This document shows positions 3,979 to 29,829 of a stretch of 64,000 nucleotides of DNA, in pieces. Numbering within the stretch: the first letter of the stretch is position 1; every line of letters starts with the position of its first letter. The position numbers were made by a program, and so were the translations under genes. Source of the DNA: Somniosus microcephalus (Eukaryota); NCBI GenBank assembly GCA_052327205.1, contig JBMRGM010000043.1, positions 30,380,001 through 30,444,000 of the forward strand, read 5' to 3'. The notes under the pieces are model-generated. The model ran no database searches and was not told the DNA's origin. It worked only from the letters and a program-made list of their open reading frames with translations.

Positions 3979-4044
3979 CGCATTCTCGTGACTTTCTGAT
4001 AGTGACCTCCGAATACACTAAATTGGCAGCATTTCCGGTAATAT
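3979..4044 (-). CDS. Gene A cytoplasmic exon with ITIM LVYSEV (DITGNAANLVYSEVTIRKSREC)
   Basis: Strong acceptor ttctctttttgtttctgtttag, 66 bp, phase 1-1, donor G|gtaaat. It could instead read on to a TAA about 60 nt further as a terminal exon. Confidence 0.8.
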
Positions 4045-4790: not shown

Positions 4791-4847
4791 CTTCCATGGG
4801 CTTCGTGCCTTGTACTAAACTGTAGGTTACCTGATCAGAACTAGAAG
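4791..4847 (-). CDS. Gene A cytoplasmic exon with ITIM VTYSLV (xSSSDQVTYSLVQGTKPME)
   Basis: Acceptor ttcctctttctctctctacag, donor AAG|gtaagg, 57 bp, open in phase 1, V-x-Y-x-x-V motif. Confidence 0.85.
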
Positions 4848-6059
4848 CTGTAGAGAGAGAAAGAGGAAACTGCGATCAATGATAATCAAGGAAGCACTTA
4901 GATACCAGACCCATCCTACAATTCATGATTGGAAATTTACAGCTGTGTTCACTGGTTTTAAAAGCTAGCAACTATTTACGCTGATCAATACAAGCTGATC
5001 CAAAGTCCCGTGAGCAAAGTCATGAAGTGTCTTGGTCCCAAGCCATGGGGCTGGGCTGAGTCACTTGCTTATAAACAGGGTGGCGGTGAGCAGCACATTC
5101 TCTCATTCTCTCCATTCCTTTCACCCAGATAGCGGTGAGAGGTCCAGTTCCATCATTCTTTGCTTGGAAATTTGATTTGTAGTGGTTGTGAGGAGACAGG
5201 TCCCAATGTCAATTGAGTACTCAAGATATTGCTCATTATGTCTGATTATCAGTTTCTGAGATTAACACATATGGACTAGCACCCAGATGCCTTCCTATCA
5301 ATCCCGCCCGATTGGGACCCACTAACTTCAGAAAAAGAAGAATGAGAAGTAGAGGAAATAATTAATTCAAAAGGAAAAGGGAATAAGGGGTAGCTTTTTG
5401 TCTTGGCGTCGGAGCAGTTAGCATCATCTGCAAAGAGCGCAGACAGCTCAGTCTGCTGGGGCAACAGGCACATCCTTTACTGAACCACCTGCATTTCTTT
5501 CTATCAACATGGTTCAAATGGACCGTGCCAACGACCCCAAACTATTTCCCTTCGTATGCTCAACCCATGCGATGCTACCTGTCCAGGCAGTAAGTTATAA
5601 ATCTAACTAGAGTACGCTGAATGCTTGCAGATGAAGATCTCCAATGTCCATGGTCGATTTCCACCATGTCCCGTCGCAATGTCGGCGGAATATTGGTGCA
5701 AGTCATGTGAAACGGCCGTCTCCCTAAAGTTTTCACTGAACTTCCACTGATGTGACAGTGGGTTACCAGCAGAACAAATGTTACCGTGAACAATCTACCA
5801 TATTTTTCAAGTGTCAGTTCATGCTTACCAGTATTTGGGGCTGATCCCCCAACTGCATACTCGAAATTGCTCGCAGATGTTTCTTCACTCGGAGGTACAG
5901 ATCTATTTTCAGTTGTCACCCTTTGCACGAAAATATTCTTAGATATTAAGGATTCATGCATCAACAACTCAAAGTTCACTTTCAACGAAATGTTACAGCA
6001 TCATAGAAACATTCAGCAGTAGCTACAGAGAACATCGAACTCCTTGAAGGAGCAATCCT

Positions 6060-7946: not shown

Positions 7947-7977
7947 CCCTGCGGCTGTGAAACACTTGAGGAATTGT
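7947..7977 (-). CDS. Gene A first cytoplasmic exon (DNSSSVSQPQG)
   Basis: Acceptor tcttcctattttatctag, donor GG|gtaagt, 31 bp. A paralogous 31-bp exon sits at 51605-51635. Confidence 0.8.
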
Positions 7978-8504: not shown

Positions 8505-8606
8505 CTTGTTTCTTTTTCCGAAGTTTGAAGAAAACCAGTGCAATCAGGGTAGCGATCAGAAAAAGTGGAACAACGGCTGCTGTGATCGCGGTTGTGTGAC
8601 TTTGTG
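8505..8606 (-). CDS. Gene A transmembrane exon, uncharged (AQSHTTAITAAVVPLFLIATLIALVFFKLRKKKQ)
   Basis: ttccag acceptor, AAG|gtgagc donor, 102 bp, phase 1-1; hydrophobic stretch followed by basic KLRKKK. Confidence 0.92.
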
Positions 8607-10457: not shown

Positions 10458-10745
10458 CTATCACTGAAACTGTAACAACATCGCTTTGCAGAGGACGTCC
10501 TGTCGCTTTGTTTGAAACACCGCAACTATAATCCCCTTGGGTGCTTTGGTTGATTTCACTGATTTGGTAATTAATTTCGGTTAGGTTGGACTCCTCACGG
10601 AAGAGTTCTTTATCCGGGTCTTTGTAGAAAATGTAAGTAATCGGGGTAGAACCGTTGAACACTGAGCAGGTTAACGACGCTGTGTCTCCTTCTATTAACT
10701 CTTTACCAGGGCTGATTGCCAGTTCCGGTTTTGACACTGGGGTTC
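10458..10745 (-). CDS. Gene A membrane-proximal Ig domain D6 (FCRL D4/D5-like)
   Basis: 288 bp, phase 1-1, tttgcag / G|gtgagt; TPVSKPEL..EGDTASLTC...GSTPITYIFYK...GDYSC. Confidence 0.93.
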
Positions 10746-11435
10746 CTGCAAATTGTTAATTACATTGCTTTTGCAGAATTTGTAGCATTACTTTCAAAGT
10801 GAAATAGGGTTCTCATCATAATAAAGAAGGCTCGACATATAGGTTACCACACCAATATTGGGCGCCCGTCTCCCTCTCCTACTTTAGCAGTAGGTGGAAT
10901 TAATAGAGGAAAGCCTGATCCTGGAACGACAATGATTCCTACTGCAATCCACTTATGGCCACCCTACTATGTTGGCCTGGTCCTTATTCCTCCTGACTCT
11001 GCTAGTGAAAAGCAGGAACTCTGCACTATTCCAATACCATAAACATTACTCTACCTAAATGCAGTGGTATCTAACTTCACCGTTCCACCTGACAAATAAT
11101 TCTACTTTCCAGCAGTCAGCTACACATAAAATGTTCACGTAAGCGCTACCCTCTCGCTTTTAGTGATAATTATACTTTACTGATCCTCCTTCCTGTCTTC
11201 GCAAACAGAGGGAATAGCTTTCCCTAATCGCCCTATCTCGCAATTGGCATGTACTAAGCACTGATGAAATAACTCTTAGGCATGGCAACCCCGTGTTAGT
11301 CCCAGTGGCTCAAGTCTATCCTGTTGAATAAAATTTCCATTCCCTGGCATCATCTGTTGAATCAGCGTTACTCGTTCTCTATGATTTTCCTGTTCTCTTT
11401 AAAAGTGATAAACAATTATCTTAAATTGTACTCAC

Positions 11436-11714
11436 GTCTGACTGAAACTGAAACCTGATTACTCAGTTTCTTCACCTCACGGTTCAAAGTAGTTGCTTCA
11501 CACCGGTAAATCCCCGAATCTTCCGGCCGAGATGCTTCCCTGATGTAATAGCTGTGGTCTGCCGCTGAATTGAGAGGTTGTCCATCTTTGTAAAATACGA
11601 GTCTCAAGGAAGAATTGGATCGAAATATTTCTACCAAACAGGCGAGTTTTATCTGTTGGCCCTCAAATAATTGAGCTCCAGAATCAGCCCGCAAAGTAGG
11701 TTCGGAGAAGAGCT
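11436..11714 (-). CDS. Gene A Ig domain D5b (intact, FCRL D3-like)
   Basis: 279 bp, ttttatag / C|gtgagt; ELFSEPTL..EGQQIKLAC..FYKDG..EDSGIYRCEA..VKKLS. Confidence 0.93.
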
Positions 11715-12215
11715 CTATAAAATAGAACGAATTATGGATTTGACAGATTCCACAACTATCACAGACATTACAATTTCGGATTTGTGCAGCAAATGTTAAT
11801 CTTTGGAACATTGAGTGGAAGACACATCCTGCGGGTCCTGTGAGATTAGCCCACAACACCAGAACGCGCCCCTGATCCAGAATTTTAACTCAGCTCTCTG
11901 CCTAGATGATGCTTTGCGCCCAGGCCTTAAATACTGAAGTCTCCTTCGTCATTGTTGCAGCGCCTGCAAACTTTGCGACATTCATGCTAGAAGCTCAGCA
12001 ACTGACAATGCCATTCTTTGGAAATCCACTCCCAACACAGGATCGATAACTCCCACCTTGTCATCAGATTGCCTGCTCCATAGAAAATGCAAAGATAGCG
12101 TTATGATTGACCGGATCTAACGGAGTGGAAACGGAATTCCTGGGCATCAAAGGCTCACACTTTAGTGACCTCGGGCGTTTTTCCTCATCCTCTTCCACCT
12201 CTACTGAAATTGGAC

Positions 12216-12350
12216 GGGGTGAAATTTCAAATTTCGATGGGGTGCAAAACCGGTGGTCGCAGATTGGCCTCCCGTTATAAACACAGGCAAATTTCAATTC
12301 CATTGTCTGCTGATCCGCTACTGCGCTCTCAAAGTTAAATTTTACCCCCG
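12216..12350. mobile_element. Short MITE-like element (one of several similar ~130-190 bp elements)
   Basis: Termini ggggtgaaatt...aattttacccc are inverted repeats. Similar termini occur at ~7731-7888, ~51040-51208 and ~51323-51510. Confidence 0.5.
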
Positions 12351-12902
12351 AGTATTCAACTATCAAAGATTTCCGGGACTAGTAAGTGCTAAGGCTTTGT
12401 CTGATTAAACACCCTGCTATTCCTGACCAGGTTCTGCTGGTTTCTCATTCAGCCAGACAGAAACAGAGCAAGTATCTTTACCTTGGAGCCATGGGGTAAA
12501 ATTTCCAATATCGAAGCTTGCGCCAATTGTACACCACGCACGATCTTCCTGTCTGCTGAAGATGATGGGAAGCAAAAACGGGCGGGACAAATAATGGGAG
12601 GCAATTTCATAATCGCCCATTTCCACACTACTGAAGGAAGCTAATGTTACCCACTGAGAGTGGGCACTGGACTTCAAATTTTGCAGCTCCTACAAATGCG
12701 GTTTTCAGCAAATGTAAGGATTGTATAAGAGCCACGTGGTGATAAGATTTGAAAAGATTGCATTCAAATTGATTTATACCCGATAAATTTGAGGGTTAAC
12801 CCTTTACCAGACCGGATCCCTCCCGTATGGTTACTTAACTATAATGCCCTGAAGAATTCTTTAAATGAAAGATGAACAATAATTAAAGCTGGATGTCCAT
12901 AC

Positions 12903-13181
12903 CTGTTACCGAAATGTAAACCTCATCACTCTTCTTTTTCACACCAAAGTCGAAAGCATTTGCTACGCACTGGTAAATCCCTGAGTCCTTCAATGAAGCT
13001 GCCTCAGTGAGAATATATTTGTAGTATGGGGTCAAGATCAGAGCTGTGCCATTTTTGTAAAATGAATATTTTAAGCAAATATTTGACGGTATATTTTCAA
13101 TAAAACAGATGAATTTTAACTGGTCTCCCTCAAGTATTTCAACTGCAGGCTCAGACCTCAGTTTAGGTTTGGTGAAGAGTT
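12903..13181 (-). CDS. Gene A Ig domain D4b (intact; absent from the ORF track)
   Basis: 279 bp, ttttcacag / G|gtatgg; hand translation ELFTKPKLRSEPAVEILEGDQLKFICFIENIPSNICLKYSFYKNG...DSGIYQCVANAFDFGVKKKSDEVYISVT. Confidence 0.9.
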
Positions 13182-13276
13182 CTGTGAAAACAGAATATGG
13201 ATTGATAGGTAACAGTTCCTATCACTGTGTTAAACAAATAGCAGAGATTGATAATAAGAGCAAGCCAATACCGAGA

Positions 13277-14385
13277 AACATAGAAACATAGAAGATAGGA
13301 GCAGGAGTTGGCATTCGGCCCCACGAGCCTTCTCCGCCATTCAATGCGATCATGGCCGATCAACCAAATTCAGTACCTGGTCACTGCTTTATCCCCATAC
13401 CCCTTGATCCCTTTAGCATTAAGAAATATATACAACTCCTTCTTGAATATATTTAATGAATTGGCCTCTACTGCCTTCTGTGGCAGAGAATTCCACAGGT
13501 TCACCACTCTCTGGGTGATGAAATTCCTCCTCATTGCTGTCCTAAATGGCTTACCCCTTATCCTTAGAATGTGACCCCTGGTTCTGGACTGCCCGACCAT
13601 CGGGAACATTCTTCCTGCATCTAGTCTGTCCAGTCCCGTCAGAATTTTATAAGTTTCAATGAGATCCCCTCTCATTCTTCTAAACTCCAGCAAGGACAAG
13701 CCCAATCGACCCAATCTCTCCTCATACGTCATTCCTGCCATCCCAGGTATCAGCCTGGTGAATCTTCGCTGAACTCCTTCCATGGCGGGTTAGGTTGATT
13801 GGCTATGATAAATTGACCCTTAGTGTTAGGGGGATTAAATGGGGATAAGTTTTGGTGTAGGGGTTACGGGGATTGGGTGGGATATGTGTCGGTGCAGGCT
13901 CGATGGGCCGAAATGGCCTCTATCTGCACTGTGGGGTTTCTGTGATCTGTGATCCTTCCTCAGATAAGCTGACCAAAACTGCACACAATACTCAAGGTGT
14001 GGTCTCACCACGGCCCTGTATAACTGCAGCAAGACATCCTTGTTCCTGTACTCAAACCATCTCGCTACGAAGGCCAACATGCCAATTCCCTTCTTAACCG
14101 CCTGCTGCACCTGCATGCTTACCTTCAGCGACTGGTGCACTAGGACACACAGGTCTTGTTGCACTTCCCCTTCTCCCAATCTATTGCGATTCAGATAATA
14201 ATCTGCCTTCCTGTTTTTGCCACCAAATTGGATAACCTCACATTTATCCACGTTATATTGCATCTGCCACGCTTTTGCCCAATCACCCAATCTCTCCAAA
14301 TCAGCCTCGAGTTTCTTGGCATCCTCCTCATAGCACACACGCCCAGCAAGCTTTGTGTCGTCTGCAAATTTGGAGAGATTACATC
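13277..14385 (-). mobile_element. 5'-truncated CR1 with a nested HE1-like SINE 3' fragment (~13785-13951, +)
   Basis: ORFs 13370-13783 and 13835-14338, catagaaa-type tail at 13277. The insertion is absent from the paralogous introns at ~19350 and ~56040. Confidence 0.92.
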
Positions 14386-15202
14386 TAGAGAATAGCCACG
14401 ATGGGCGCCTATACTTAATGGTAACCAGCAGCTGTATTGTGGATCACTGGAGCAGGAAGCATTATTATGTTTTTATGGATTTCCTCTCGCTGCTTTGTTT
14501 GCGGAGAACTTAACCTGATTAATTTATTCTGCTGAAACCGGAATTCCATACTGGGCAAGGCTTAATTATCAGCAGGAATATCCTCCCTTAGATCTTTTCT
14601 CTTTTAGCCATTCTCTGCTGCGTCTTCACCATCTAGTATGACCAGGGTGAACTCCACCAATATCCACAGCTACATTGCTCTGTCCCTAGCCAGCCCCCAG
14701 CTCAGCTGTCACCATCTGAAATTAAAAAGACTCCCGATTCTCCCGGCCAGGGTGATGGATCAGTGATGATATAACTCACCCGTTGCGATGATAAGGGCAT
14801 CCAACGGCATCAGCGTACAGATTTTATTAGGAGCCTGTGATTAAGCTTATGCCAAACAGGTAAGTGGAAAGGGCAAAAGAGAGGGGAGAGGAGCACACTG
14901 CTTATTGTGTCCTTCCACACAGTCCATCAGCGGACCCACCACTGAATTTTCAGGAGTACCTGCTGGTGCATTTTGTCAACTCATCATCGTGGTTGTTAGG
15001 GAGAGAGGCACCATCATATTTCGGTTTAGTGGGGGAATACTCCCCGTCAGCCTCTTGATGTAACAGGCTGGTAATGGGAAGCCGCCAAATTCTCCTCTGA
15101 GGTGGGGCGGGAGGAGAAAGATAGCTGCCAGTGCGTGCACGGGAGGAGACCCACCCTGGGTTAATTATTGGCTAAAGTAGCACGGTGTTAGACAGCCATC
15201 AT

Positions 15203-15921
15203 GGGCCAAGTTTTCCAACCCCCACGGGTGCATACGAGCTGTGTACTCACCCATAGGGGCCTTGCAGGTACCGATTTCAGGTATGCGCTTAAAACCGGCA
15301 CCTGCGATCTGTCAAGAATTCTCTTGACAGATGATCCACTTGCCCAAGAAAAGAGCCTCTGTGGCTGGAGAGTTTGCACAACTTCCGGCAGCTGAAAGGC
15401 TGTAGAATTCGTCCGACTGGTAAAAGTAGGCATAAGAGTGATGAAAGTTAGAAATAACAAATTTGATCACTCACTTATAAGTTAGAAATACTCTTGAAAC
15501 GGTAAATTATTTATAGCCCAGTAAAAATGTTTAATTTTTTTTCTATAAATTATGTTTAAAATATTTAATTAAATGGAATTTTAATTCATTTTAATTTTGT
15601 AATTTTAAATAGTTTATTTACTGTTTTAGTGTGTTTTTAAATGTGGTTCCCAATCATACTTTTGACAGTTCAGTCCCTACAGACCTGTCAAATGTATGAA
15701 GGGGGATTCCCTTCTTTGATTTGTTCGCCTTTCTCACGTGATCCCAGGAGCGCTTGCAAACCGTATGTGCCCCTGGGATACCTGGGCCTCTGCGCATTTC
15801 CAACAGGAGAGGCCCAGGATCGGAAGCCTCGGGCTCTCCAAACCAGCAGGTAAGTTCGTAGATTTGTTTCCGATTGGAGGCATCTACCGGCAGGAAACCG
15901 CCGAACGGAAATTCAAGGCCT
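15203..15921. mobile_element. MITE-like non-autonomous DNA element
   Basis: Absent from the paralogous site at ~20172. Imperfect ggcc..tttcc / ggaaatt..ggcc termini, GC-rich arms and an AT-rich core; resembles 25241-26006. Confidence 0.65.
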
Positions 15922-16057
15922 CTATGACCTAACACGAACAAATTCTTCCGAGCTCACACAGCTATGCATAAATGTGGACAGATTCAGAACCTCTCGGACC
16001 TGTAATATGGATAAATATCCAAGAGCGATATCGCCAATTGAAATATTGCCGACGTAC

Positions 16058-16315
16058 CTTGAACGTGAACATGAACACTTCGTGATTCCTTATTGCCAAC
16101 AGTGCAATGCTATGATCTGCTGTCTTTTGAACTATTCACTCTAATGCTATGCAGAGCTCTCCGATCGGTCAACTTCATTGAGTGAATCCTTATATTGCCA
16201 TTGTAAAAGCCAACATCTTTATGCCTCCAATAATGCATTCTGAACCAACAATTCAGATTCAGAACACCTCCTTCCAAAACCGAAGGTGGGTCGACATTGA
16301 AGGCCACTTTGCGAT
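16058..16315 (-). pseudogene. Gene A Ig exon D3b with an in-frame TAG
   Basis: 258 bp with intact splice sites. TAG at 16110-16112 replaces the Tyr of DSxSYHC (TAC in D3a). Confidence 0.85.
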
Positions 16316-17387
16316 CTAATGTTGGGAACAAAATGTGGCGGTTTTAGCTTAACAAATGCTTAACTCAAACTGAGAACTGCTCCACAACAGCCCGTATACA
16401 TTGGACACGAGAAAACCCCAATCCCAACTCCAGGCAAGTCTGGGAAAAAGAAGAACAGAAAGGAAACAGCAGTCGGGTGGTGTTGAATTTACTGATGGTT
16501 GTAAATGGGGTTTATTGATAATCTATCCTCGTGCAGCAGCTCCCCACCATTTGGCCCAGCTCTTCTTAGTTTGATACACTGAAAATAAACTATTTTGGGA
16601 ACGACGGTTAAGCAACGCCCGAGCACATAAGGGATTAGAAAATCTAGCACTAATGATCACTTATTGCTTACCGAACTCACAGTAAATGTACTCCATTGAT
16701 CTCAACAGAAGGAAACTCCACCGGATTCTGTGAGGTGCATTCCATCCCCCCCTCCGACCAGATTATGGAAGGTGTGCATCCAGCTCCTTTTGCTTTCTGA
16801 GCCTCCCAGAGGGCACACAGTGCCCGAGTTGCGTTGTGACGATAAGGAAAGAGTGCGCCAAACCTTCCTGGCCTCAGCTACATGCCTGATTCAGCTACAC
16901 TCTCTCATCCATTAGCAAGAGATCTGCCTATGTTGGGACGGGCTTACGCTGGTTTCTGTAGGGCAGTGACAGGCGCACATCAGTAGGCCCGAGGGCACTG
17001 CCACTAGCCTCATGTTCACTGTAAAATTCTATCTAACTCCACCGCTCCACCTGGCAAATCATTCTATGTTCCAGCACTCGTCTATATAAAGAACGTCCTT
17101 CTAAGCGCTACCCTCCCGCTTTAATGATAATTATACATTACTGATCCCTCCTTCCTGTCTTCGCAATCAGAGAAAATATCTTTCCCTAATCGCCCAATTT
17201 CGGAATTTGCATTTAAAAACCACTAATGAAATAACCTTTAGCTATGGCTAACCCGGTAGTGTTAGTCCCAATACCTCAAGTCTATCCTGGTGAATACACT
17301 TTTACTTCCCTGGTGTACGCTACCCGTATTCTATGATTTTCATGTTCTCTTTAAAAGTGTTATAACATTGTCTTAAATTGTACTCAC

Positions 17388-17666
17388 ATCTGACTGAAAC
17401 GGAAACCTGATTACTCAGTTTCTTCACCTCACTGTTCAAAGTAGTTGCTTCGCTCCAGTAATTCCCCGAATCGTCCGGCCGAGATGTCTTCTTGATGTAA
17501 TAGTTGTTGTCTGCCGCTGAAGTGAGAGATTGTCCATCTTTGTAAAATACGAGTCTCAAGGAAGTATTGGATCGAAATATTTTAACCAAACAGGCGAGAT
17601 TTAACTGTTGGTCCACAAATAATTGAGCTCCAGACTCAGCCCTCAGTGTAGGTATGGAGAAGACCT
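17388..17666 (-). CDS. Gene A Ig exon D5a, open frame but F-strand Cys lost (DSGNYWSEA)
   Basis: 279 bp, splice sites intact; YWS where D5b has YRC. Confidence 0.7.
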
Positions 17667-18995
17667 CTATAAAATAGAATAATGCATGGATTTTCCGGGT
17701 TCCACATCCATCACAGACTTAACAATTTATGTGTTTGGACAACTCACGTTAATGAGCAGAAGAATGAAAAGCCGACAGCAGCTCAGAGAAAGAGGCTTTC
17801 AATAATCCTTGATTGCGCTCTGCCACGGGAATATACAGTTCGGGACATTGACACAGTTATCACTTGAGATCTGAACATCCTGTCGTGGCTAGATTTGGGA
17901 ACAAGTTAACCCTTCCATTGAAATGAATGGAAGAAACATCCTGCGGGTCCTCTGAGATTATCCCCCAACACCCCAACCCCACAACCCCATCATTTGAACT
18001 CTGCTCTCAGCCCAGGCGATGCTTTACTCCCGGGTCTTAATTACTGAAATATCCTTGGTCGTTGTGGCAGCACCTGTAAATTTTAGGACCTTCATGTTAA
18101 ACGCTCAGCTACTATCAATACAATTTTTCTGAAATCCACTGCCGACACAGGATTGATAACTCCCACCTTGTTTTCAGATTGCCTGCTCCATTGAAAATGC
18201 GAAGCTCGAGTTATGATTGGTCGGATCTAAAAGATTGGGAAGGAATCCCCGGGCACCAGAGGCACAGACGTTAGTGACCTCGGGCATTTTGCATCCACCG
18301 CTACTGAAATTGGAGGGAGTGAAAATTCAAGTTTGTCTGGGGTAAAAAACCGGTGGTAGCAGATTGCTCACCCTTTATAAACACAGGCCAATTTCAATTC
18401 AATTTTCTGCCGTTCAGTTTTAGCGCTCTCAATGTTAAATTTTACCCCCGAGTTTTCAACTATAAAAGATTTCCGGGGCTAGTAAGTGGTAAGGCATTGG
18501 CTGATTAATCACCCTGCTGTTCCTGACCAGGTTCTGCTCGCTGCTGAATATGCCAGTTAGAAACAGGGAAGGTAACTTTACCTTGGGGTTATGGGTTAAA
18601 ATGCACGGCATCGAATCTTGCACCAATTCTACACTACGCGCGATATTCCTGTCCATTGAAGATCAATGGATGCAAAAACGGTCGGGACATATAATGGGAG
18701 ATAAATTCAATATCGCCCAATTCCACACTATTTCAGGAAGCTACTATTACCCACTGGGAGTGGGCGCTGGTCCTTAAACGTAGCAGCTTTTAAAACCTCG
18801 GTTTTCAGCAAATGTATGGATAGTGTAAGAACCAGGTGGCGCTGTCATTTAGCAGGTTGCATTCAAAATTGATTATTACGTCATAAACTTGTGGGTAAAT
18901 CCTTTACCAGACTGGATCCCTCTCGTATGTTTATTTAAGTATAATCCCCTGAAGAATTCTTTCATTCAACTATAATTACAGCTGGCTGTCCTTAC

Positions 18996-19258
18996 CTTTA
19001 ACCGCAATGGAAACCTCATCACTCTTTTTCACAACGCGGTAGGAAATATTTGCTTCACACAGGTAAGTCCCCGAGTCCTTCAAAGAAGCTGTCTCCGTGA
19101 GCTTAAATGTGTTGTATGAAGTCAATATCAGAGCTTCGCCATTTTTGTAAAATGAGTATTGAAGCCCATTACTGTACGGCATTGTTTCAATAATATTGTT
19201 ATTGTTTCAAATATTTCAACTGCAGGGTCAGTCCTCAGTTTAGGTTTGAAGAAGAGTT
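18996..19258 (-). pseudogene. Gene A Ig exon D4a, frameshifted
   Basis: 263 bp versus 279 in D4b. The GDQLKFIC segment is replaced by a local attgtttcaa duplication, which removes the first Cys and shifts frame to a TGA. Confidence 0.85.
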
Positions 19259-20307
19259 CTGTGAAAGCAGAATCTGGATTGACAGGTAACATTTCCTATC
19301 ACTGAGTTAAACAGACAGCAGAGCTTTTTAATAGGAGCAAGGCAATACCGCAAATCGCCACGAGGGGCGTCTACAATTAACGGTAACTAGCAGCTGTATT
19401 GTGGAACACTAGAGCAGGAAGCATTACTATATTGTTGTGGAATTCCTCTCGCTGCTTTGTTTGCGGAGATCTTAATCTGCTTAATATAAAGCGCTGAAAC
19501 AGAAATTCCAACCAGGACAAGACTTATATTTCAGCAGGGATCCTCCCATAGCTCTTTTCTCTTTTAGCCATTATCTGCCGTGTCTCACCATCTACTATGA
19601 CCACGGTGAACTCCACAATTGTTCGCAGCAAAATCGCTCTGTCCCCAACAAAGCCCCCTGCTCAGTTGTCACCATCTGAATTTACAAAGACTCCAGATTC
19701 TCACGGTCAGGGCGATGGATCAGTGATGATATAACACACCCGCTGCGATGACAAGGGCATCCAAGGGAATCTGCTCCCATAGTTTATTAGGGGTCTGTGG
19801 CGAAGTTTGCGCCAAACACGTAAGTGAAAATAGCAAAACAGAGTGGAGAGGAGCACACTGCTTATTCTATCCTTCCACAATGTTCGTCAGCGGACCGACC
19901 ACTGACGTTCCAGGGTCTCACGAGGACCTGCTGGTACTTTATGTCAAATATACTCATCGTGCTTATTAAGGACAGAGGCAGCATCAAATTTCGGTTTCGT
20001 GGCAGAAAACTGCCCGTCAGCCTCTAGATGTCACATGGTGGTAATGGGGGAAGCCGCCAAATTCTCCTCAAAGGTGGGTCGGGAGGAGAAAGAAATCTGC
20101 TGGAGCTGGCATGGGAGGAGACCCGCCCGTGTTAAATATCGACTAAAGTAGCACGTTGTTAGACAAACATCATATGACCTAACGTGAACAAATTATTCCG
20201 AGATCACAGAACTATATATAATTTTGTACAGATTCAGAAATTCTCGGACCAGTAATATTTATAAATATTAAAGAGGGATATCACCAATTGAAATTTTGCA
20301 TACGTAC

Positions 20308-20562
20308 CGTGAACGTGAACATGAACACTTCGAGAAATTTTCTTGTCAATAGTACAATGGTATGATCCACTGTCTTTTGAACTATTCACCCTAATGCTAT
20401 GCAGAGCGTTCCAATAATACAACTTCATTGAGTGGATCCTTCTATTTCCTTTGTAAAAGCCAACATCTTTCCACAAATAATATTTTCTGTACCGACAATT
20501 CAGATTCAGAACATCTCCTTCCAAAACCGAAGGTGGGTCGACCTGGAAGGCCACATCGCCAT
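20308..20562 (-). CDS. Gene A Ig domain D3a (intact; FcR/FCRL D2-like)
   Basis: 255 bp, cattag / G|gtacgt; VAFQVDPPSVLEGDVLNLNC..GFYKG..DSGSYHC..VHVHV. Confidence 0.9.
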
Positions 20563-21539
20563 CTAATGTTGGGAACAAAATTTCGTAGTTTAGTTTAACA
20601 AATGATTAAATCAAACGAAGAACTGCTTCGACAACAGCCCGAATACATTGGACACGTTATATAATCCCAATCCCAAATCCAATCCAGGCTGGGGCAAATA
20701 CAGAACAGAAAGGAAGCAGTGGACAGTTGCTGTTGAATATACTGATGGTTCCAATTTGGGTTCATTGGTATTGCTCTCCTCCTGCAGCACTTCCCCACCA
20801 TTTGGCCCAGCTACTCTTAGGTTGGAACACTGAAAATAATCTACGTTGGGCACGGCGGTTAAGAAACTCATAAGCAGAAAAGGGAATAGAAAATCCGGCA
20901 CAAAGGATCACGTATTGCTCACTGAACCCGCCGTATATGTACACTTTTGATTTCAAAAGAAGGAAATTACGCCGGATTTTTTGAGGAGCATTCCATCCAC
21001 AGCACCAGATTCTGGAAGGAGTGCATCCAGCTCATTTTGCCTTCTGAATCGGCCAGTGGGCACAAGGTCCCAGAGATGCGTTGTCAACATAAGGTAAAGA
21101 GTGCCCCAAATATTCCAGGCCTCAGCTATAAGCCTGAACCAGCTACAATCTTCCATCCATTAGCATCAAATCCGCCTATGTTGGGATGGTCTTACGTTGG
21201 TTTGCATACACATCAGTAGGACCGAGATCACTGCCAGGAGACTCATGTTAACTTTGAAATGGGGCTTTCTGGTTGCAGTCACAAATTAGCAGTTCAAAAT
21301 CTTCCAATATCTACGATCGACAGGCAGGAGTTTGGGGTGTGAGAATTTAATTCAAATAACTACCTACCTTGTTATCACTTTAGGATGCCCTTGGATCCTC
21401 ACAAAGACTTTGGTTGGCAGATTAAGCGGACGAAAGCTCCACCACCAGTGTCCTTCAAGAGCCCTCCTCTCTTGGGGTCCGCCATTGTAAATGAATAGGA
21501 AACTTTTGTGGAAGACCAGAAACATCCCTCCTGACTCAT

Positions 21540-22144: not shown

Positions 22145-22405
22145 CTGTTACGGTGAGGTTTACTTCCTGCGAGACCCACTTCCTGTAGCCTATTTTGCAT
22201 TCACACCGATAAGATGCCCCATCTGCAATTTCTGCTTTAGTTATGATGTACTGAGATTGAGAACTTCCATGTATTATCTCTTCTTTCTGATACCACAGGA
22301 AGTATCCTCTCCCTTTCTGGTCAGACACCAAACAATTCAGGATAATTCTTTCACCTGACAGCGTGGCTCTTGGTTTTACTTCAAGAGTTAAAATCATATC
22401 AGAAG
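22145..22405 (-). CDS. Gene A Ig domain D2
   Basis: 261 bp, ttttcag / AG|gttggt; GERIILNC...FLWYQ...DGASYRC. Confidence 0.92.
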
Positions 22406-23402: not shown

Positions 23403-23654
23403 CGATTGTGACCACTTCCAGAGCCTCACTCCTCTCCGATTTGTTTGACCATACATCACACTGGTAAGAGCCTCCACTGCTGCTGTCTGCTAGTGATTCA
23501 TAAAACTCACTCTGAGGTTCATGTAAATGTATATTATTTTTTAACCAATTAGTGTAAATAGCTTTGCCACTGTATCGACACTGCAGCTTAAATTCCTCTC
23601 CTTCCTTTACCACACCACTGCTGGGAAAACTAACCAGCACTTCCGGCCCAGGAG
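23403..23654 (-). CDS. Gene A N-terminal Ig domain D1
   Basis: 252 bp, tctttctgcag / G|gtaggt; KEGEEFKLQC..NWLKN..GGSYQC. Confidence 0.92.
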
Positions 23655-24950: not shown

Positions 24951-24980
24951 CTTGTGTGGTCGCCTGATGAGTAATTTGCA
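24951..24980 (-). CDS. Gene A 30-bp leader mini-exon S2 (xQITHQATTQ)
   Basis: Acceptor ttgtcttctctctttcag, donor AAG|gtatga, phase 1-1, joins D1 in frame, conserved in three copies. A split leader with a mini-exon is typical of FcR/FCRL/LRC genes. Confidence 0.85.
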
Positions 24981-28498: not shown

Positions 28499-29829
28499 AA
28501 AAATGTTAATTCCTACTTATAAACAAAACTACAAGAATTAGAAATTTGAAAGCAGTTTCTGCAGGTGAGGCTAAATAATTGGTAAATTAAAAAATATTAG
28601 GCTGTTTAGAAGCAATCCTATTGAGCTGCAACCTGTTATAGCAAAAGTGATCTCTTAGATGAGCGGAAAGATCCTGTTACCTTGAATAATCAAACTTAGG
28701 TCTGTTGTTGCACTAAATTCTGATTAAAACAGAAACATAGAAAATGACATTTCAACGCATTTTAAATGAATGTCTTCCTTTCAGAAACTGTCAATATCAA
28801 TTTAGTGCGTCGCTGACTTTTACAGAATGAGCCTTATTATTCTGATTGTGGGTCCGGGGTGAGTGACGCAGATTTTCAAAGGCACTGGCAATATTTGAGA
28901 ATCACTTACAGAAAATCAGAAGGCGACAGATGTGCTTCATTTCGAAAGCGGGGGCTCCAAGCAGAAGCTCCTTTCCCTCTGTGAAAAGGCTCCCTTCGTA
29001 TCAGCTGTTTTCAGTTCCTTTTATCTGGAAAGTGAAATTAAAAATCATACAGCACAGAAGGAGGCCATTCGGCCATGGTGCCTGTGCCGGTTCTTCGAAA
29101 GAACTTGCTAATTGTTCCCACTCCCCTGCCATTCCCCAACATTGCATTTTTCCACTTTGCAGACAGTCGCTCGCCTTTAAGAGAGCCAAGCCAATTTTTA
29201 AAACTCATGGATCATAATTCTGTTTATTTCAATGCAGCCTCTATTTATTCAGATTTGGGTTAACATTTCCACAGAGAGCCTGAACAGATCGAATCCATCA
29301 AACACAGAGCAACCTATTCCCAAGCGCATGGCTCCGCTTCCCACTCCTGCACCCAACAAATGTACCCGCCCACAATAAGCCGCTGACACTGTTCTACTTC
29401 TTCAGTACCAAACGCCCGCACGCGCAGATCCCGAGTCTGTACTTGCGGGGAATGAGGAGACAGCGGCTGGAGCGAGGTCCCCAGGAGCAGTCTGCAGCTG
29501 TGGAGCTCACTGGCCATGCTCCACGCGACTGCGCACTGAGATCACTATGACTTCTGACCAAATTGGAGAAAAGGGGAACTTAAACTTAACGTGATGATGA
29601 TTCCAACCTAACGCTGAAAAGTGAAATGAGCTCTTGCAATTTTAAAATAAATTCTAAACACAGGCTTATCCAGTGTATCTGCTTGAGCTGCCCAATCTAT
29701 TCCGCCTATCCGACTCACTCCAGGTAACCGTTAACTTTGCTCTACCAGAACAAATATTCTAATTATATTTTAACATTAATTTTTTGACTCTAGATAAGTT
29801 TACCCATCTCATTGCAGACAACGAAAAAA

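What the first reader, a model, noticed from the sequence alone, without database searches (positions are those of the whole stretch)
11069..21260. Internal three-exon duplication with complementary decay that leaves exactly one good D3-D4-D5 set
Seen, in transcript order: D3a intact, D4a frameshifted, D5a lacking Cys, D3b with a stop, D4b intact, D5b intact. The three damaged exons are contiguous, so one splice from 20308 to 13181 (VHVHVH-ELFTKP) gives a clean six-Ig receptor. All three damaged exons still have AG/GT sites. Inference: either selection kept the gene functional via multi-exon skipping, or inclusion yields NMD or soluble isoforms.
Basis: partly seen in the sequence, partly recalled or inferred. 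Interest (0 to 1): 0.7.

Follow-up and report, generated by a model that had tools for sequence, protein, structure and literature searches.

The report
Broken copy in shark FCRL array
This shark-type immune receptor gene is one of eleven near-identical copies, four of which have unbroken reading frames, so its seemingly neat pattern of damaged exons is likely a chance mix of mutations shuffled between copies, not a splicing trick kept by selection.

Summary
The anatomy is as described. D3-D4-D5 is repeated; D4a is frameshifted (net -13), D5a lacks a Cys, D3b has TAG, and all keep AG/GT. The triple skip 20308>13181 is the only minimal in-frame rescue of this copy.

The 'complementary decay' reading fails. 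The gene has 11 copies about 99% alike in a 1.3-Mb array, and 4 of 11 encode an open 998-aa, nine-Ig, ITIM-bearing FCRL-like receptor. The frameshift is in 3 of 11, the stop in 4 of 11, both in 1 of 11 (1.09 expected by chance). The D5a Cys loss is in all 11, open copies included. Other copies break D3a or D5b, exons the rescue needs. Copies are recombinant mosaics (p=0.0005).

Most likely this is a pseudogene copy in a birth-and-death array. Splicing is untested, because the RNA runs barely cover the exons. One result cuts the other way: DNA run X1 shows only the stop allele of D3b. The scan has already noted this cluster on neighbouring DNA of the same genome.

The parts
28910..28940 (-). 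Leader exon 1 (ATG; 31 coding nt), nearest upstream candidate
24951..24980 (-). Leader mini-exon 2 (30 nt)
23403..23654 (-). Ig exon D1, open (weak FcR D1-type hits, not the top hits)
22145..22405 (-). Ig exon D2, open (FcR D1-type)
17028..21260 (-). Block a of the repeat (part of D2-D3 intron, D3a, D4a, D5a, part of the D5 3' intron)
20308..20562 (-). D3a, open here (FcR D2-type); 23-nt deletion in copy c06
18996..19258 (-). D4a, frameshifted here and in c04, c09; open in 8 of 11 copies
19195..19206 (-). D4a lesion: 12 nt repeating adjacent sequence in place of 25 nt (net -13)
17388..17666 (-). D5a, open; YWS (17460-17452) instead of YRC in 11 of 11 copies; last base T makes a stop if joined to D4b, D5b or D6
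17027..17030 (-). Block junction: D5 3' intron joined to D2-D3 intron; continuous in 11 places of G000
11069..17027 (-). Block b of the repeat (D3b, D4b, D5b), with repeat insertions at about 15922-15203 and 14384-13274
16058..16315 (-). D3b; TAG at 16112-16110 here and in c02, c05, c10; TAC in 7 of 11 copies
12903..13181 (-). D4b, open in 11 of 11 (FcgammaRI/FCRL5 D3-type)
11436..11714 (-). D5b, open here; stop in c05, deleted in c02 (FcR D3-type)
10458..10745 (-). D6, open (best hit: a membrane-proximal FCRL5 domain)
8505..8606 (-). Transmembrane exon, no charged residue in the hydrophobic span
7947..7977 (-). Cytoplasmic exon 1
5829..5920 (-). Cytoplasmic exon 2
4791..4847 (-). Cytoplasmic exon 3, ITIM-type VTYSLV
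3979..4044 (-). Cytoplasmic exon 4, ITIM-type LVYSEV; two more exons lie just outside the window (L131)

Best explanation
The window holds one of eleven near-identical copies of a nine-Ig, ITIM-bearing FCRL-like receptor gene, and this copy is likely a pseudogene that picked up two independent null mutations through sequence exchange between copies. Steps: (1) An old non-homologous join put a second D3-D4-D5 block behind the first. The junction is shown; whether it arose inside one gene or by fusing two neighbouring paralogues is open. (2) The D5a Cys loss was fixed before amplification (shown: 11 of 11 copies). (3) A unit of about 70 kb was amplified to 11 copies 0.4-1.1% apart (shown). (4) Single lesions arose in D3a, D4a, D3b and D5b (shown) and were reshuffled by unequal crossover or conversion (mosaic pattern shown, mechanism inferred). 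(5) Ordinary splicing of this copy would include D4a, stop at aa 320 and likely trigger NMD, while the four open copies would supply the 998-aa receptor (inferred; no transcript seen).
For: Exactly 11 copies by D4b protein search and by the junction sequence. 4 of 11 (c03, c07, c08, c11) are open over 18 exons, with AG/GT at every site in all copies. D4a frameshift 3 of 11, D3b stop 4 of 11, both 1 of 11; expected 1.09, P(at least one)=0.79. All four combinations of the two lesions occur. Incompatible site pairs rise from 0.12 (under 100 bp) to 0.62 (over 5 kb) among 258 sites, permutation p=0.0005, and the nearest relative of this copy changes along the gene. Lesions also hit the 'good' set: D3a deletion in c06, D5b stop in c05, D5b-to-C1 deletion in c02. 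Amino-acid variant density is not raised in D4a/D5a/D3b (11 of 634 sites, 0.017) against D3a/D4b/D5b (9 of 636, 0.014) or unduplicated exons (23 of 1061, 0.022). Run X3 (another organism label) has contigs across the block junction, with Tyr and Gly in D3b, and intact-type D4a loose ends. Neighbouring paralogues differ in domain number at the DNA level, as reported for Xenopus XFL genes (PMC2413239, passages seen).
Against: No transcript was seen, so skipping is not excluded. In DNA run X1 the contig over 16110 carries only the stop letter (depth 27.6). Stop-bearing D3b may therefore be common in that animal, which fits tolerance of D3b loss. All 5 small lesions (D3a deletion, D4a indel, D3b stop, D3b insertion, D5b stop) fall in the six duplicated exons and none in D1, D2 or D6 (chance about 0.13 by Ig exon count). 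Variant counts are small and show only weak purifying selection anywhere (intron rate 0.025). D5a keeps one unpaired Cys in all copies, so the nine-Ig protein may itself be impaired. Some mosaicism could be assembly switching between near-identical copies.
Confidence: 0.8

Rival explanations
1. Selected multi-exon skipping: this copy makes a six-Ig receptor (727 aa) by splicing D3a to D4b, and the skipped exons decayed because they are unused.
For: The frame is open and this is the only minimal rescue. Every other exon of this copy is intact. The five small lesions are confined to duplicated exons. X1 shows the D3b stop.
Against: Splice sites of the three exons match those of the open copies at AG/GT and in the displayed flanks. 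Each skipped exon has only one lesion and no excess of variants. The combination occurs at the chance rate. It needs a 7.1-kb triple skip over three canonical exons.
Confidence: 0.08
2. Soluble decoy: inclusion of the frameshifted D4a gives a secreted D1-D2-D3 protein with a short foreign tail (stop at aa 320) that has a function.
For: The same frameshift is in 3 of 11 copies. The leader and the three N-terminal domains, including the FcR D2-type domain, stay intact.
Against: The stop lies about a dozen exon junctions upstream of the end, a classic NMD target (general knowledge). I did not look for, and have no sign of, a polyadenylation site after D4a. Other copies truncate at unrelated places (aa 224, 530).
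Confidence: 0.08
3. Assembly artefact: the two lesions are real alleles but were joined into one copy by switching between near-identical copies or haplotypes.
For: Copies are only 0.4-1.1% apart. The haplotype seen in X1 (stop plus Gly) is a minority, 2 of 11, in the assembly.
Against: The lesions lie 3.1 kb apart, within one long read. Copies carry private insertions and deletions. The complex indel is identical in 3 copies, so it is not a base-calling error.
Confidence: 0.04

Closest known systems
Horn shark protein P0001, named 'Fc receptor-like protein 5 [Heterodontus francisci]' by NCBI/UniRef (automatic name)
   Same: 57% identical to D4b; similar leader, D3-D4-D5-D6 order, TM and tyrosine-motif tail.
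   Different: It has no D1-D2, a single D3-D4-D5 set, and an extra Ig domain before the TM.
Human FCRL5 and FcgammaRI (PDB 9loc, 8din)
   Same: Best structural-sequence hits. D2 is FcR D1-type, D3 is D2-type, D4 and D5 are D3-type, D6 is FCRL5 proximal type. FCRL5 also has nine Ig domains (PMC4016189, passages seen).
   Different: Domain order D1-D1-(D2-D3-D3)x2-proximal differs from FCRL5. The leader mini-exon is 30 nt, not 21. Ligand untested.
Xenopus XFL family (PMC2413239; abstract and passages seen)
   Same: Large lineage-specific array, many domain architectures, repeated D3-type domains, intergenic exon recombination, two-exon leader.
   Different: The passages I saw do not describe near-identical copies with segregating null alleles; orthology was not tested.

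Membership tests
FcR/FCRL family | Ig domains of the FcR D1-D5 subtypes | tested here: met
   Top PDB hits are FcgammaRI, FcgammaRIII, FcepsilonRI or FCRL5 for D2, D3a, D4b, the D5 alignment and D6. For D1 such hits are weak and not on top. No tree with human domains was built.
FcR/FCRL family | One Ig domain per phase-1 exon | tested here: met
FcR/FCRL family | Signal peptide split over two exons | tested here: met
   31-nt and 30-nt exons; predicted from sequence, no cDNA
FcR/FCRL family | 30/21-bp leader rule of mammalian FCRL1-6 (met by only a fraction of XFLs, PMC2413239) | tested here: not met
   Second leader exon is 30 nt
FcR/FCRL family | ITIM-type tail or charged TM | tested here: met
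   VTYSLV, LVYSEV, VTYAIV in the open copy; uncharged TM. ITIM consensus recalled.
FcR/FCRL family | Synteny with the human chromosome 1 FcR locus | tested here: inconclusive
   0 of 20 pentraxin matches lie on C43; one marker only
FcR/FCRL family | Binds immunoglobulin or MHC II | not testable with these tools
   needs a binding assay
Complementary decay rescued by exon skipping | Lesions fixed together and confined to the skipped exons | tested here: not met
   3 of 11, 4 of 11, both 1 of 11; lesions also in D3a and D5b
Complementary decay rescued by exon skipping | Skipped exons evolve without constraint | tested here: inconclusive
   No excess of amino-acid variants, but few sites; dN/dS 0.5-1.25 in all comparisons
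Complementary decay rescued by exon skipping | Transcripts with the 20308>13181 junction | tested here: inconclusive
   RNA runs X5 and X6 barely cover the exons
Birth-and-death multigene array | Recent tandem copies, a mix of open and broken, exchanging sequence | tested here: met
   11 copies, 4 open and 7 broken; recombination signal

The most novel reading that the evidence does not exclude
The array uses its phase-symmetric duplicated exons as cassettes. Copies with a null in one duplicated exon stay alive by skipping it (c04, c09: D4a; c06: D3a; c10: D3b; this copy: all three), so one gene type yields inhibitory receptors of six to nine Ig domains, and null alleles act as length switches. 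One search shows that 6 of the 7 broken copies have such an in-frame rescue; the X1 contig suggests the D3b stop can be common.
Probability: 0.1. Interest if true: 0.55.

Novelty: new member of a known kind. Interest (0 to 1): 0.2.

Why it matters
As a pseudogene copy it matters little: broken copies are normal in immune receptor arrays. It is a useful caution that a tidy 'one good set' pattern in one copy can be chance. The wider locus matters more. Two papers state that FCRL genes are absent from cartilaginous fishes (PMC4016189, PMC13337447; passages seen), whereas NCBI names and a shark single-cell study already list fcrl3/fcrl5 (PMC11372145, one passage seen), and this genome holds a large, fast-evolving array. 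The scan has noted that point before. If null-triggered skipping were shown, it would be a new way to vary receptor length.

Tried and rejected
RNA. The look-up of sequencing runs gave no RNA holder listed. Same-species RNA runs X5 and X6 (24% and 31% read) gave mean depth of about 1.5 or less in the exon bins. None of the 15 displayed joints was exon-exon; 184 were not shown, and repeat reads swamped the table. On 16000-20620, X6 laid 5 reads and no joint. This is uninformative on splicing.

My first idea, that skipping only D4a and D3b would rescue this copy, was wrong: D5a joined to D4b makes TAA.

dN/dS between blocks and paralogues (0.46-1.25, single exons) does not separate used from unused exons.

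Pentraxin as a synteny marker gave no match on C43.

A fold prediction of D5a never returned, so nothing is claimed about its stability.

The homologue search returned one protein among 163 candidates (longer lengths only).

Trees used 8, 10 and 12 chosen paralogue exons for D3, D4 and D5. I left out near-identical duplicates and frameshifted or deleted fragments, including three D5 remnants that also lack the Cys. Only part of the array was fetched (one search lists the blocks), so a closer relative of block b may exist.

Five paper searches listed no study of this shark array or of skipping in it. Subscription journals are not covered and no supplements were read.

Full report
Observation. 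The minus strand carries a multi-exon Ig receptor gene. D4a is 263 nt and out of frame, D5a reads YWS for YRC, and D3b has TAG at 16112-16110. Self-comparison gives blocks 21260-17028 and 17027-11069. With all exons included the frame stops at aa 320. Skipping D4a alone stops at 438, skipping D4a and D3b stops at 370, and skipping all three gives 727 aa. The shape itself is not improbable: any three consecutive exons of a three-exon repeat are one of each type, and 4 of 20 triples are contiguous (arithmetic).

What the gene is. It has two leader exons, nine Ig exons, an uncharged TM and six tail exons, two of them just outside the window. The domains score as Ig_2 or ig. The one homologue returned is a horn shark protein named Fc receptor-like protein 5, 57% identical to D4b, so the source is probably a shark (inference). 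Against solved structures, D2 matches FcR D1, D3a matches FcR D2, D4b and the D5 alignment match the D3 of FcgammaRI and FCRL5, and D6 matches FCRL5 proximal domains; D1 is less clear. The tail has ITIM-type motifs (consensus recalled). It is an FCRL-like receptor, predicted to be inhibitory.

The decisive result is the set of sister copies. D4b has 11 matches at 99-100% identity between 30.39 and 31.73 Mb of G000:C43, and the block junction is continuous in the same 11 places. Six of the ten spacings are 69-72 kb. Copies differ by 0.40-1.08% and carry private insertions. I reconstructed all 11. Four (c03, c07, c08, c11) are open for 998 aa over 18 exons. The D4a frameshift is in c01 (the window), c04 and c09. 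The D3b stop is in c01, c02, c05 and c10; c02 and c10 also share an 847-nt LINE-like insertion. c06 has a 23-nt deletion in D3a, c05 a stop in D5b, and c02 lacks D5b through C1. YWS in D5a is in 11 of 11. The two nulls meet once, against 1.09 expected (P of at least one 0.79). So the 'damaged' exons are intact in most copies, D5a is not a private lesion, and exons of the 'good' set break elsewhere.

How the mix arose. All four combinations of the two nulls exist. Among 258 informative sites, incompatible pairs rise with distance from 0.12 to 0.62 (p=0.0005). The window copy is closest to c04 over D3a-D4a and to other copies elsewhere. This is the signature of unequal crossover or gene conversion (mechanism inferred; assembly switching could add to it). 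The D4a lesion replaces 25 nt by 12 nt that repeat adjacent sequence and is identical in three copies, which looks like one repair event, not a base-calling error. Amino-acid variants are no denser in D4a/D5a/D3b (11 of 634 sites) than in D3a/D4b/D5b (9 of 636) or the rest (23 of 1061); introns show 459 of 18417. The counts are small.

Origin of the repeat. Block a exons are closer to single-block paralogues (best 92.9, 94.5 and 92.8%) than to block b (84.9, 81.3 and 89.9%). Block b is mostly 79-86% alike to every paralogue I fetched. The junction joins a D5 3' intron to a D2-D3 intron. Its left arm is 85.9% alike to another gene type (95% over the last 121 nt) but 78.6% to the gene's own D5b intron. 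'Internal duplication' is therefore one option; fusion of two neighbouring paralogues, or an old duplication with later conversion, fits as well. Neighbours show at least six other domain layouts.

Other runs. DNA contigs of X1 and X3 span the junction. X3 has Tyr and Gly in D3b. Both show loose ends reading as intact D4a, though close paralogues may contribute. Against my reading, X1 shows only the stop letter at 16110, with Gly at 16118, a haplotype that is 2 of 11 in the assembly. Contigs drop rarer variants, so stop-bearing D3b may be the commonest form in that animal. Also, all five small lesions lie in the six duplicated exons (chance about 0.13), and 6 of 7 broken copies have some in-frame skip. 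In two open copies (c07, c11), however, D3b cannot be skipped alone without a stop. RNA runs gave almost no exon reads, so splicing is untested.

Comparison. Lineage-specific expansion, variable architectures and intergenic exon recombination are described for Xenopus XFL genes (PMC2413239; abstract and passages). PMC4016189 and PMC13337447 (passages) say cartilaginous fishes lack FCRL genes, while PMC11372145 (one passage) lists fcrl3 and fcrl5 in bamboo shark B cells. Earlier notes of this scan describe the same cluster; they are unchecked leads.

Verdict. The best reading is a doubly broken copy in a birth-and-death FCRL-like array (0.8). Triple-skip rescue is at 0.08, soluble decoy at 0.08, artefact at 0.04. 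Interest 0.2.

Noticed in passing
G000:C43 30.3-31.9 Mb and 25.3-25.5 Mb: Large FCRL-like cluster with several domain layouts and many pseudogenes; genes at 30.39-30.64 Mb lie on the minus strand and those from 30.69 Mb on the plus strand. Two papers say cartilaginous fishes lack FCRL.
   Followed up: partly
window 59128-48179, minus strand: Second gene (B): D1, D2, no D3, D4 with frameshift and stops, no D5 exon found before D6, then a shortened Cys-less D5 remnant and a TM. It looks like a pseudogene and is amplified with gene A in a unit of about 70 kb.
   Followed up: partly
window 37584-37510, 34324-34247, 32001-31932: Extra leader-exon copies between the two genes with no Ig exons after them, inside long 5' repeats.
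   Followed up: no
window 17388 (last base of D5a): C/T variant among copies (6 T, 5 C). With T, joining D5a to D4b, D5b or D6 creates a stop, so this base decides whether D3b can be skipped.
   Followed up: yes
window 13181-12903 and 17666-17388: D5a has one Cys and D4b has three; D2 also has three. Whether the odd cysteines pair is unknown.
   Followed up: no
G000:C43 25395300-25410832 (L116, L117): Six-Ig paralogue that is block-a-like up to D5 and closer to block b in the intron after it, as if one block had been removed by a D5a/D5b crossover; it carries frameshifts.
   Followed up: partly
window 16118: Most assembly copies (9 of 11) have Arg for the conserved Gly in the D3b motif before the Tyr, while contigs of X1 and X3 show Gly: the array's make-up seems to differ between animals.
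   Followed up: partly
window 14384-13274: LINE-type fragment with a nested short element in the D3b-D4b intron; related repeats are abundant in both RNA runs.
   Followed up: no
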